From: Candidatus Moanibacter sp.
Lineage (GTDB): Bacteria > Verrucomicrobiota > Verrucomicrobiia > Opitutales > UBA2987
Length of the DNA: 64,000 bases
NCBI GenBank assembly: GCA_965226025.1
Contig: CBDDCD010000001.1
Location: forward strand, 970,104-1,034,103
Reading direction: 5' to 3'
Shown here: piece by piece, positions 50,857 to 51,639 of the stretch
Layout of the letters: the number at the start of each line of letters is the position of its first letter
How positions within the stretch are numbered: the first letter of the stretch is position 1
Position numbers and translations under genes: made by a program
Notes under the pieces: generated by a model
Told to the model about the DNA's origin: nothing
Seen by the model: the letters and a program-made list of their open reading frames with translations, nothing else
Databases searched by the model: none

Positions 50857-51075
50857 GGGATTTTTTAAAATAGTACTCATTTTCTGTTTAGAGGGCGTGG
50901 CCGTTTAGTTGCTGGAGTCTATGCCATACCGGTGAACCGCGCCTTTGGAGTGATTCGAGGTATCTGTGCTCGTCGTAATTCTGGTTATTTTGCCAGCAGC
51001 GAAAGAGAATGCGGGTCCACTTCAGAGCGAGCGCTCGAAGGATGGTTTGGCGGGATTTGCCCTGTTCTTTTTTAA

Positions 51076-51639
51076 CTTGGTAATTCCCCGTAGCTTGCTA
51101 CGGGGTCGCGCACTTTATAAGCAGGGAGGGTGGAAAAAAGGAAGGACGGAAGCAGTTTAAAGCGAGGATGGCATTGTGTGTGGCAGATCCATTACCACAT
51201 GGTGATGCCGGTGAAGTATCGGAAGGCGTTGATAGAGGAAAGAATACGGAGGGTTTTGAAGGAGACGACGGAAGGGATCGAGGAACGCTATGCGATCGAG
51301 ATGGAGGGATTGGGATGTGATAAGGATCACGTACATCTGTTGTGCGGAGCACATCCCAAGATGGCGCCCGGGAGGATCGTGCAGATATATAAGAGTATAA
51401 CGGCGCGGGAAGTGTTTGGGCGAGAGAGTTGGATAAAAAAGGAGCTATGGGGAGGAGAATTCTGGTCGGACGGCTACTACGTGGGAACGGTGGGGGAAAG
51501 AGGAGACTGGGCAACGGTGGAACAATACGTGCGCGAACAAGGAAAACCGAAAGAGGAACTACGGCAGTTGATGCTATGGTGAGCATGGGCGTGATCTGCT
51601 ACGATTCGATACCCCGCAGCTTGCTGCGGGGAGGTTCAT
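51076..51639 (+). mobile_element. IS200-family element (tnpA only, 564 bp)
   Basis: Subterminal hairpins CCCCGTAGCTTGCTACGGGG and CCCCGCAGCTTGCTGCGGGG; target TTAA 5' of the left end, right end ending TCAT, no TSD. Confidence 0.9.
51130..51582 (+). CDS. tnpA: IS200/IS605-family Y1 HUH transposase
   Basis: YHMV...KYRK, DHVHLL (HUH), WGGEFWSDGYYV, EQYVREQ catalytic Tyr helix. Confidence 0.95.
   Translation: MEKRKDGSSLKRGWHCVWQIHYHMVMPVKYRKALIEERIRRVLKETTEGIEERYAIEMEGLGCDKDHVHLLCGAHPKMAPGRIVQIYKSITAREVFGRESWIKKELWGGEFWSDGYYVGTVGERGDWATVEQYVREQGKPKEELRQLMLW

What the first reader, a model, noticed from the sequence alone, without database searches (positions are those of the whole stretch)
51072..51639. 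Scarlessly excisable IS200 nested in the IS110 recombinase: three layers of nested mobile DNA
The order is repeat element > IS110 > IS200. The tetranucleotides preceding the hairpins (AATT left, GATA right) fit the IS608-type guide pairing rule for cleavage sites TTAA and TCAT. Excision at those points gives ...TAC TAT CAA ATT AAA AAA GAA..., restoring the frame exactly. IS200/IS605 excision is precise (established), so TnpA activity could reactivate the recombinase as a stochastic switch (inference). The bridge RNA could meanwhile serve other copies in trans.
Basis: partly seen in the sequence, partly recalled or inferred. Interest (0 to 1): 0.65.

Follow-up and report, generated by a model that had tools for sequence, protein, structure and literature searches.

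The report
IS200 inserted inside an IS110 gene

Summary
Observation confirmed. A 564-bp IS200-group element (window 51076-51639, tnpA on +) sits 3' of TTAA (51072-75), inside codon 375 of a 436-aa IS110-family recombinase gene on the minus strand. Two uninterrupted sibling copies read ...TTCTTTTTTAA|TTTGATAG... at that point, exactly the predicted joint. The repaired protein (YYQIKKEQG) is identical to a protein found on 39 public contigs.

Nine distinct insertion sites of this IS200 and its relatives have identical ends. Eight lie 3' of TTAA and one 3' of TGAA. The guide tetranucleotides (AATT, GATA) pair with the cleavage sites (TTAA, TCAT) by the IS608 rule.

The IS110 (50836-53113) is inserted, with a duplicated CT core, in one arm of a REP-like palindrome. 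Its 5' non-coding end carries four bridge-RNA-like guide segments matching target and donor.

The "stochastic switch" idea is not supported:
- Many intact IS110 copies coexist with this one.
- No excision product can be assigned to this locus.
- No circle junction was seen.
- The IS200 active strand lies on the C-rich strand, the orientation unfavourable for excision.

A sister strain has the same locus with IS110 but no IS200 and no scar. The same IS110::IS200 composite also occurs at a second locus. This is a new member of known kinds, of modest interest.

The parts
50775..50835 (.). REP-like palindromic repeat after the ABC-F gene stop. It comprises the left arm CTAGGAGTCTGTCGGAC, a loop, and the right-arm part GTCCGAC plus the core AG (50834-35).
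   Evidence: A second copy lies at 23906-23990. Six pattern matches in the window against 0.59 expected. The intact version of this very repeat is seen in L030. Depth is roughly 100-250x the unique flank in four runs.
50836..53113 (-). IS110-family element: 2278 nt including the IS200, 1714 nt native. The CT core (AG on +) is present at both junctions, 50834-35 and 53112-13.
   Evidence: Ends defined by aligning 14 copies with different flanks and by the empty site in L030 compared with the filled site in L029.
50888..51075 (-). 3' fragment of the IS110 recombinase gene: last two bases of codon 375 through codon 436, plus the stop codon.
   Evidence: Translation after removing the IS200. Identical to P0241.
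51072..51075 (+). TTAA: the IS200 target and left cleavage site (flanking DNA, retained on excision).
   Evidence: Eight of nine distinct insertion sites of this IS200 and its relatives have TTAA here; one has TGAA.
51076..51639 (+). IS200-group insertion sequence, 564 nt, tnpA only.
   Evidence: Exact boundaries from the empty sites in L001, L002 and L029. Five further distinct copies plus the second composite (L006) are 99.8-100% identical with the same ends.
51082..51105 (+). Left guide AATT (51082-85) plus the left subterminal hairpin (51086-51105).
   Evidence: Pairing rule taken from PMC3201880 and PMC5934647.
51130..51582 (+). tnpA, a Y1 HUH transposase. It is 150 aa from the GTG at 51130; public gene calls use the GTG at 51178, giving 134 aa.
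   Evidence: Pfam Y1_Tnp E 7e-33. NCBIfam transpos_IS200. The HVH motif and the Tyr in VEQYVREQ align with ISDra2 TnpA, 2xm3.
51608..51639 (+). Right guide GATA (51608-11), right hairpin (51612-31), AG triplet bases (51632-33) and right cleavage site TCAT (51636-39).
51640..52762 (-). 5' part of the IS110 recombinase gene: codons 1-374 plus the first base of codon 375. As it stands, the ORF runs on into the IS200 and stops at 51599, giving a 387-aa product.
52763..53113 (-). IS110 left-end non-coding region with a putative bridge RNA. Target-loop guides: TAGGAGG (52947-41) and TCCGACAGA (52924-16). Donor-loop guides: CCTCAGTTT (52875-67) and ACTATAAG (52846-39).
   Evidence: Complementarity search and shuffle test: 0 of 5000 shuffles reach the summed match length. 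The architecture is as described for IS621 in PMC11208160. No Rfam hit.
53114..53121 (.). GCTCCTAG: the remainder of a REP arm. It belongs to a different REP copy (the one upstream of the permease gene), not to the ABC-F REP.
   Evidence: The intact REP ...GTCCGACAGGCTCCTAGAGAATGG... is seen in L037-L041. The ABC-F REP continues as ACTCCTAGATATAAG in L029 and L030.

Best explanation
This is a plain nested insertion. One copy of a multi-copy IS110-family (bridge-recombinase) element inserted, by CT-core recombination, into an arm of a REP-like palindrome. A recently active 564-bp IS200-group element then inserted 3' of a TTAA inside codon 375 of its recombinase gene. That cut off the last 62 residues and most likely inactivated this copy's recombinase (inferred). 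The IS200 has everything known to be needed for TnpA-catalysed precise 'peel and paste' excision: an intact HUH/Tyr transposase, two subterminal hairpins, guide tetranucleotides that pair with both cleavage sites, and the retained TTAA. Excision would therefore regenerate the wild-type gene exactly (shown at sequence level; the activity is inferred). That reversibility is a generic by-product of IS200/IS605 chemistry, not a regulatory device. The disrupted IS110 keeps intact ends and an intact bridge-RNA region, so it remains a potential substrate for recombinase made by its many intact siblings (inferred).
For: Boundaries and joint:
- The boundaries and scar-free joint were verified against three uninterrupted copies, including one at the same left flank in a sister strain.
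- The repaired protein is identical to P0241, seen on 39 contigs.

IS200 family features:
- Five other insertion sites carry 99.8-100% identical 564-nt copies. With relatives of 84-96% identity there are nine distinct sites, all with the same ends; eight have a TTAA left flank and one has TGAA.
- Six of six guide/cleavage base pairs fit the IS608 rule C1-G2, C2-G1, C4-G4. T1/A3 is kept in both cleavage sites, and AG follows the right hairpin as in IS608. The C4-G4 pair is from my memory of Barabas 2008.
- TnpA family membership and catalytic motifs.

IS110 features:
- IS110 domains.
- The IS621 alignment places the region of the IS621 catalytic Ser241 (from memory of Hiraizumi et al. 2024) upstream of the break. 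The lost segment corresponds to the C-terminal helices, IS621 residues about 285-326.
- CT core at both junctions, and the empty REP.
- Four bridge-RNA guide segments in the expected order and strand sense.

Copy number:
- Ten further intact copies were fetched, six of them in one assembly.
- IS110 to unique-flank depth ratios are about 1.4-11.
Against: - No direct evidence of activity. No circle junction and no locus-specific excision product were found.
- Loss of function of the 387-aa truncated recombinase is inferred, not tested.
- The IS110 protein scores below the NCBIfam IS110 cut-off, 120.6 against 140 bits, and no Rfam bridge-RNA model matched. The bridge RNA therefore rests on complementarity only.
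- The two flanks of this IS110 copy come from two different REPs. The locus has been rearranged, or the contig is a chimeric join, and the order of events is not fully resolved.
Confidence: 0.88

Rival explanations
1. One reading: the IS200 acts as a reversible stochastic switch. TnpA-mediated precise excision turns this IS110 recombinase back on, while its bridge RNA serves other copies in trans.
For: - Excision would be scar-free and give the consensus protein.
- The IS200 copies are 100% identical, so they were recently active.
- An IS200-free, scar-free IS110 exists at the same left flank in a sister strain, L029.
- The bridge-RNA region is intact.
Against: - Intact copies encoding the identical recombinase already exist, six in one related assembly, so there is nothing to switch.
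- The L029 allele is most simply the ancestral pre-insertion state.
- No excised allele can be assigned to the locus and no circle junction was seen.
- The active (+) strand is C-rich in all eight 8-kb bins (skew -0.06), which implies it lies on the leading-strand template, where excision is disfavoured (PMC5027513).
- The guide segments and donor ends do not vary among the copies compared, so service in trans has no distinguishable consequence.
Confidence: 0.05
2. The IS110::IS200 composite is itself a mobile unit. With ends and bridge RNA intact, it was excised and re-inserted into another REP by recombinase supplied in trans, carrying the IS200 as a passenger.
For: - The same composite (same TTAA, same orientation, IS200 100% identical) sits at a second locus with entirely different flanks on both sides: L006/L018, between DUF8034 and PhdYeFM-ParE.
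- Native IS110 has only 4 TTAA sites and the window has about 1.1 TTAA per kb, so two independent hits at the same site look unlikely by a rough estimate.
- Both IS110-nested IS200 copies are in the replication orientation that is the minority among the other copies (7 of 9 positive skew against both negative). That is what would be expected if they were moved by IS110 rather than by TnpA.
Against: - The two composites differ at a site (52316) that is polymorphic among intact copies. Each groups with a different sub-lineage, which fits independent insertion or gene conversion as well.
- The two loci are in different assemblies or strains.
- IS110-mediated rearrangements clearly occur here and could shuffle flanks without transposition.
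- The IS200 shows a T-rich extended preference (TTTTAA-like), so a hot spot is possible.
- GC skew over 6-kb flanks is noisy.
Confidence: 0.25
3. Assembly artefact: the nesting, or this particular locus, is a chimeric join of repeats in a metagenome assembly.
For: - The left and right flanks of this IS110 copy belong to REPs that lie on different contigs in the other assemblies where both loci were found.
- Short-read-style contigs break at the repeat.
- No contig spanning the IS110-IS200 junction was found in four runs.
Against: - The identical IS110::IS200 junctions occur in an independent assembly on a 1.79-Mb contig, L006/L018.
- The composite is only 2.3 kb. If, as the contig naming suggests, these are long-read assemblies, single reads would be expected to span it (not verified).
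- The junctions obey the IS200 target rule exactly.
Confidence: 0.04

Closest known systems
IS200 group of the IS200/IS605 family (IS200 of Salmonella; mechanistic models IS608 and ISDra2)
   Same: - tnpA-only element of about 0.6-0.7 kb with a Y1 HUH transposase.
- Subterminal hairpins and no inverted terminal repeats.
- Inserts 3' of a tetranucleotide without target duplication.
- Guide tetranucleotides 5' of each hairpin pair with the cleavage sites by the IS608 rule; AG follows the right hairpin.
   Different: - The target is TTAA (IS608 uses TTAC, ISDra2 uses TTGAT).
- The hairpins are perfect 8-bp stems without the extrahelical base of IS608.
- The left cleavage site is only 10 nt from the hairpin foot (19 nt in IS608).
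- TnpA is only distantly related to the solved ones (E 7e-18 to ISDra2).
IS621 / IS110-group bridge recombinases that target REP sequences (also ISPpu10)
   Same: - DEDD plus Tnp-domain recombinase.
- Long non-coding left end with two guide loops. In each loop the 5' side has the sense of the left half-site and the 3' side is complementary to core plus right half-site.
- CT core duplicated at both junctions.
- Insertion into a repeated extragenic palindrome.
   Different: - The recombinase is 436 aa against 326 aa, matches IS621 only over the C-terminal half (E 6.6e-5), and is below the NCBIfam cut-off.
- The bridge RNA is not found by Rfam.
- The target repeat is a different palindrome, in a verrucomicrobial (Moanabacter-like) host.
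Gene reactivation by precise IS excision (excision reporter assays for IS608 and ISDra2; IS492 phase variation in Pseudoalteromonas)
   Same: Precise excision restores an interrupted reading frame.
   Different: In those cases a single-copy gene with a phenotype is switched and both states are seen in one population. Here the interrupted gene is one of many identical copies, and no within-population switching was seen.

Membership tests
IS200/IS605 family (IS200 group) | Encodes a Y1 HUH tyrosine transposase (TnpA) | tested here: met
   Pfam Y1_Tnp 113.8 bits, full-length match. NCBIfam transpos_IS200 121.4 bits against cut-off 55. The HVH motif and catalytic Tyr align with ISDra2 TnpA.
IS200/IS605 family (IS200 group) | Subterminal hairpins at both ends, no terminal inverted repeats | tested here: met
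   8-bp stem hairpins at 51086-51105 and 51612-51631, -8.4 and -10.2 kcal/mol. The ends CTTGG... and ...GTTCAT are unrelated to each other.
IS200/IS605 family (IS200 group) | Inserts 3' of a specific tetra/pentanucleotide, with no target-site duplication | tested here: met
   Empty sites ...TTAA|TTTG.... Eight of nine distinct sites have TTAA and one has TGAA.
IS200/IS605 family (IS200 group) | Cleavage sites recognised by guide tetranucleotides 5' of the hairpins | tested here: met
   TTAA with AATT and TCAT with GATA give 6 of 6 pairs under C1-G2, C2-G1, C4-G4. The first two pairs are documented in PMC3201880 and PMC5934647; the third is from memory of Barabas 2008.
IS200/IS605 family (IS200 group) | Precise excision as a single-stranded circle (RE-LE junction) | tested here: inconclusive
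   No back-joint 51639>51076 was found in contigs of seven runs or in the sampled raw reads of one run, which showed no IS200 coverage at all. Contigs and about 2% of one Hi-C run cannot show a rare ssDNA intermediate.
IS200/IS605 family (IS200 group) | Active strand preferentially on the lagging-strand template | tested here: inconclusive
   Seven of nine other loci have positive GC skew on the top strand. This copy (-0.06 over 64 kb) and the other IS110-nested copy (-0.02) do not. The replication direction itself is not known.
IS110 family, IS110 group (bridge recombinase elements) | DEDD (RuvC-like) N-terminal domain plus Tnp C-terminal domain | tested here: met
   PF01548 62.8 bits and PF02371 37.6 bits, both above their cut-offs. 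Aligns to IS621 residues 162-322. However, NCBIfam transpos_IS110 gives 120.6 bits, below its cut-off of 140.
IS110 family, IS110 group (bridge recombinase elements) | Core dinucleotide shared by donor and target and present at both junctions; no other duplication | tested here: met
   CT is at both junctions in 14 copies. The empty target GTCCGAC-AG-ACTCCTAG in L030 compares with the filled one in L029.
IS110 family, IS110 group (bridge recombinase elements) | Bridge RNA in the long left end, with target- and donor-binding loops | tested here: inconclusive
   Four guide-like segments of 7, 8, 9 and 8 nt lie in the right order and strand sense; 0 of 5000 shuffles reach the summed length. There is no Rfam match, no covariation test was done, and there are no RNA data.
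IS110 family, IS110 group (bridge recombinase elements) | Sequence-specific insertion into one target motif | tested here: met
   All 14 copies lie in CTAGGAG-N-CT-GTCGGAC (one has a variant right half).
REP-type extragenic palindromes as mobile DNA | High-copy intergenic imperfect palindrome | tested here: met
   Six matches in the window against 0.59 expected. Depth is about 100-250x the unique flank. Arms of 17 nt.
REP-type extragenic palindromes as mobile DNA | Evidence that the repeat itself moves (associated RAYT-type transposase, presence/absence polymorphism) | not tested
   No RAYT was looked for. The repeat was present at both loci in all strains examined.
IS-excision phase-variation switch | Both alleles at one locus within one population, and a phenotype tied to the interrupted gene | tested here: not met
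   Interrupted and uninterrupted alleles at the same left flank occur only in different assemblies. The joint seen in reads and contigs comes from the other, intact IS110 copies. The gene is multi-copy.

The most novel reading that the evidence does not exclude
An IS110-family element whose recombinase gene was destroyed by an IS200 remains a functional bridge-RNA-guided substrate and is moved in trans by sibling recombinase. The IS200 would then hitch-hike as cargo into REP targets by a double-strand route that ignores its own ssDNA and replication-strand constraints. The two composite loci would be the trace of this.
Probability: 0.2. Interest if true: 0.45.

Novelty: new member of a known kind. 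Interest (0 to 1): 0.3.

Why it matters
Mostly as a clean worked example. One locus shows, at base resolution and with natural empty sites for each layer, the target rules of two very different guided transposition systems: DNA-guided IS200/IS605 and RNA-guided IS110. Practical by-products are:
- a new TTAA-specific IS200 with perfect hairpins;
- a divergent 436-aa bridge recombinase with readable target and donor guides and a known natural target, from a Moanabacter-like verrucomicrobium.

If the composite is really mobilised in trans, it would be a natural case of a bridge element carrying cargo. The switch idea, if true, would matter little, because the recombinase is supplied by many other copies.

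Tried and rejected
- Rfam scan of 50600-53300 at E<=1: no hit.
- Exact 27-mer next to the insertion site against genome contigs: no match, so copies could not be counted in a reference genome.
- Look-ups of the 150-aa TnpA and the 676-aa ABC-F with the window's own start codons: not on record. Alternative starts worked.
It was reached instead through the cluster listing as P0241.
- Flank-gene look-ups in short-read assemblies gave contigs that stop at the repeat, so they could not link flank to allele.
- Reads and contigs:
  - The 51075>51640 joint is abundant, but it comes from a contig that holds only IS110 sequence and stops at the repeat (1.6-3.5 kb; 1719 nt in X1). It cannot be assigned to this locus.
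  - No contig crosses the IS110-IS200 junction in four runs.
  - The only raw-read run has no IS200 at all.
- I considered whether L029's 391-aa IS110 was an imprecise-excision footprint. I rejected this because the lesion is a 1-nt loss in a T5 run 125 nt from the site, and the site itself is intact.
- I considered whether two variants shared by both composites (51845, 52096) mark a composite lineage. I rejected this because the intact-copy contigs in four runs show no difference from the window at those positions.

Full report
**1. What is there**

Window 51076-51639 is a 564-nt IS200-group insertion sequence. Its only gene runs from 51130 (or 51178) to 51582 on the + strand.
- It matches Pfam Y1_Tnp over the whole model, E 7e-33.
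- It matches NCBIfam transpos_IS200 at 121 bits against a cut-off of 55.
- The HUH motif (HVH) and the catalytic tyrosine (VEQYVREQ) align with those of ISDra2 TnpA, the closest solved structure.

The ends carry perfect 8-bp hairpins, at 51086-51105 and 51612-51631. Folded as single-stranded DNA they give -8.4 and -10.2 kcal/mol.

The element interrupts a minus-strand gene with DEDD_Tnp_IS110 and Transposase_20 domains. The break is after the first base of codon 375, so the standing ORF gives a 387-aa product that ends inside the IS200.

**2. Are the boundaries and the 'scarless' joint right?**

Yes. Deleting 51076-51639 gives a 436-aa ORF reading ...NTYYQIKKEQGKSRQ....
- A database search returned P0001, an uninterrupted 436-aa protein differing at one residue far from the junction.
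- Its two genomic copies (L001, L002) contain the exact joined sequence ...CTGTTCTTTTTTAA|TTTGATAGTAGG....
- Shifting the cut by one base either way does not reproduce the sibling sequence, so the boundaries are unique.
- The exactly repaired protein is itself in the public collection (P0241) on 39 contigs.
- Ten more intact copies were fetched, six of them in one assembly.

**3. IS200 copies and target**

Look-up of the 134-aa TnpA found eight places.
- With relatives of 96% and 84% identity there are nine distinct insertion sites. All elements have the same ends (CTTGGTAATT...GGTTCAT); the 564-nt length holds for the copies that are 96-100% identical.
- Eight sites follow TTAA and one follows TGAA. 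The preceding bases are usually T-rich.
- The copies are 99.8-100% identical, so the element spread recently.
- One copy (L004) sits in the end of another IS, a 1.8-kb DDE_Tnp_1 element present three times in the window.

**4. Guide rule**

For IS608 the literature gives these pairs: first cleavage-site base with second guide base, and second cleavage-site base with first guide base. These are T-4:A-34 and C-3:G-35 at the right end, and T-4:A+17 and T-3:A+16 at the left (PMC3201880, PMC5934647). From memory of Barabas 2008, the fourth base pairs with the fourth.

Here TTAA with AATT and TCAT with GATA satisfy all six pairs.
- Both cleavage sites keep the T1/A3 pair.
- The two bases after the right hairpin are AG, as in IS608.

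The boundaries were fixed independently from empty sites, so this agreement is not circular.

**5. The IS110 layer**

Aligning 14 copies with different flanks places the element at 50836-53113. That is 1714 nt native, with CT (AG on the + strand) at both junctions.

The target is one arm of a palindrome, CTAGGAG-N-CT-GTCGGAC ... GTCCGACAG-N-CTCCTAG. The orthologous ABC-F locus exists in two other states:
- empty in L030 (...GTCCGAC AG ACTCCTAG ATATAAG...);
- filled by an IS110 without IS200 in L029.

The 350-nt left end holds four segments in the order and strand sense described for bridge RNAs (PMC11208160):

| Segment | Window position | Relation |
|---|---|---|
| TAGGAGG | 52947-41 | same sense as the left target |
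| TCCGACAGA | 52924-16 | complementary to T + core + right target |
| CCTCAGTTT | 52875-67 | same sense as the right-end terminus |
| ACTATAAG | 52846-39 | complementary to core + left-end start |

The first two flank one stem-loop and the last two flank a second. No shuffle of 5000 reached the summed match length.

Rfam has no match and I ran no covariation test. The bridge RNA is therefore well indicated but not proven.

**6. The outer layer**

The palindrome is a high-copy repeat.
- Six matches in the window against 0.59 expected.
- Depth about 100-250 times the unique flank.

Whether it is itself mobile was not tested.

**7. Is it a switch?**

Nothing supports that.
- The 51075>51640 joint is abundant in all eight runs examined. 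It lies on a contig that holds only IS110 sequence and stops at the repeat (1719 nt in X1). Its depth is about 1.4-11 times the unique flank in the four runs where a flank depth was available, so it represents the intact sibling copies.
- No contig crosses the IS110-IS200 junction in four runs.
- The one raw-read run contains no IS200 at all.
- No RE-LE circle junction was seen.
- The IS200-free allele at the same left flank (L029) has a perfectly intact site. It is most simply the ancestral state. Its own defect is a 1-nt loss in a T5 run 125 nt away.
- The + strand, which is the IS200 active strand, has negative GC skew in all eight 8-kb bins. Seven of nine other IS200 loci are positive. IS608 and ISDra2 excise mainly when the active strand is on the lagging-strand template (PMC5027513), so this copy is probably in the unfavourable orientation (inferred).

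**8. Unexpected points**

(a) L006/L018, on a 1.79-Mb contig of another assembly, carries the same IS110::IS200 composite between completely different flanks. The composite therefore exists at two or more loci.
- The two copies differ at 52316, a site polymorphic among intact copies.
- Mobilisation of the composite in trans, gene conversion, a hot spot, and flank shuffling all remain open.

(b) The right flank of the window's IS110 (G-CTCCTAG-AGAATGG...) belongs to the REP upstream of the permease gene. That REP is intact in five other assemblies. The left flank belongs to the ABC-F REP, whose natural continuation is a methyltransferase gene. This copy therefore joins two distant loci. Either an IS110-mediated rearrangement occurred or the assembly is chimeric. 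This does not affect the nesting, which is independently assembled in L006.

**9. Organism and context**

The closest reference genome for the ABC-F protein is a MAG named Candidatus Moanabacter sp., at 77% amino-acid identity. From memory, that is a verrucomicrobial lineage. The sequence occurs in runs labelled with many different organisms, which suggests a host-associated or widespread bacterium.

**10. Verdict**

The mechanism of each layer follows known families. The switch idea is unsupported. This is an ordinary nested insertion, valuable mainly as a clean example and as a source of a new TTAA-specific IS200 and a divergent bridge recombinase with a readable guide code.

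Noticed in passing
L006 / L018 (ERZ26167216 ctg495552, about 1.52 Mb) compared with window 50775-53121: The same IS110::IS200 composite (same TTAA, same orientation, IS200 100% identical) sits at a second locus with different flanks on both sides (DUF8034 and PhdYeFM-ParE). The two composites differ at 52316 and 52776.
   Followed up: partly
window 53114-53125 and 50775-50835; L029, L030, L037-L041: The two flanks of this IS110 copy come from two different REP copies, which lie on different contigs in other assemblies. 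This is either an IS110-mediated rearrangement joining the ABC-F locus to the sugar-permease locus, or a chimeric contig join.
   Followed up: partly
window 11004-12828, 30559-32382, 59911-61724: Three near-identical copies of a 1.8-kb IS encoding a 492-aa DDE_Tnp_1 transposase. In L004 the IS200 is inserted in its end (GATTTTTAA|TGAGTTATGGGC).
   Followed up: partly
window 61690-61700 (third copy of the DDE IS): This copy lacks 11 nt (TTGATTTTTAA, ambiguous by 2 nt). The missing stretch ends exactly at the point where the IS200 is inserted in L004. It removes the TTAA target. The alternative upstream site does not fit the guide rule, so its origin is unexplained.
   Followed up: partly
L007 and L010 (same site in two assemblies): One IS200 copy lies 3' of TGAA rather than TTAA. 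The second base mismatches the left guide, so this copy may be poorly excisable.
   Followed up: no
window 51074-51109 in runs X1, X3, X4, X7: The first 34 nt or so of the IS200 left end (guide plus hairpin) have about 5-57 times the depth of the IS200 body. Beyond 51109 some of these contigs run on into different sequence. Relatives or short non-autonomous derivatives sharing the left end seem abundant.
   Followed up: no
window 53125-53280 (T run near 53190-53200): The first permease gene is split by a frameshift relative to the 293-aa version in other strains. One run's contig has an extra T after 53200. This may be a homopolymer assembly error or a real pseudogene.
   Followed up: no
L029 position corresponding to window 51765: The IS200-free IS110 at the orthologous locus has lost one T of a T5 run, giving a 391-aa product. 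This is an independent lesion or a homopolymer error.
   Followed up: partly
L001, L018, L023, L024, L026 5' flanks; L030 8090-8190: A conserved module of about 95 nt (GACAGATTGGCACA...CAAATCTCAGTTTCATTTTCTTAT) adjoins many copies of the palindrome. The repeat unit may be larger than the palindrome alone.
   Followed up: no
window 15721-15957: Four tandem copies, about 52-63 nt apart, of a roughly 60-nt unit (TTGCCTCAACACCGGGAGTGATCGAAGGTACGGCGGCGAATGGATCTCTC...). Seen in the repeat scan.
   Followed up: no
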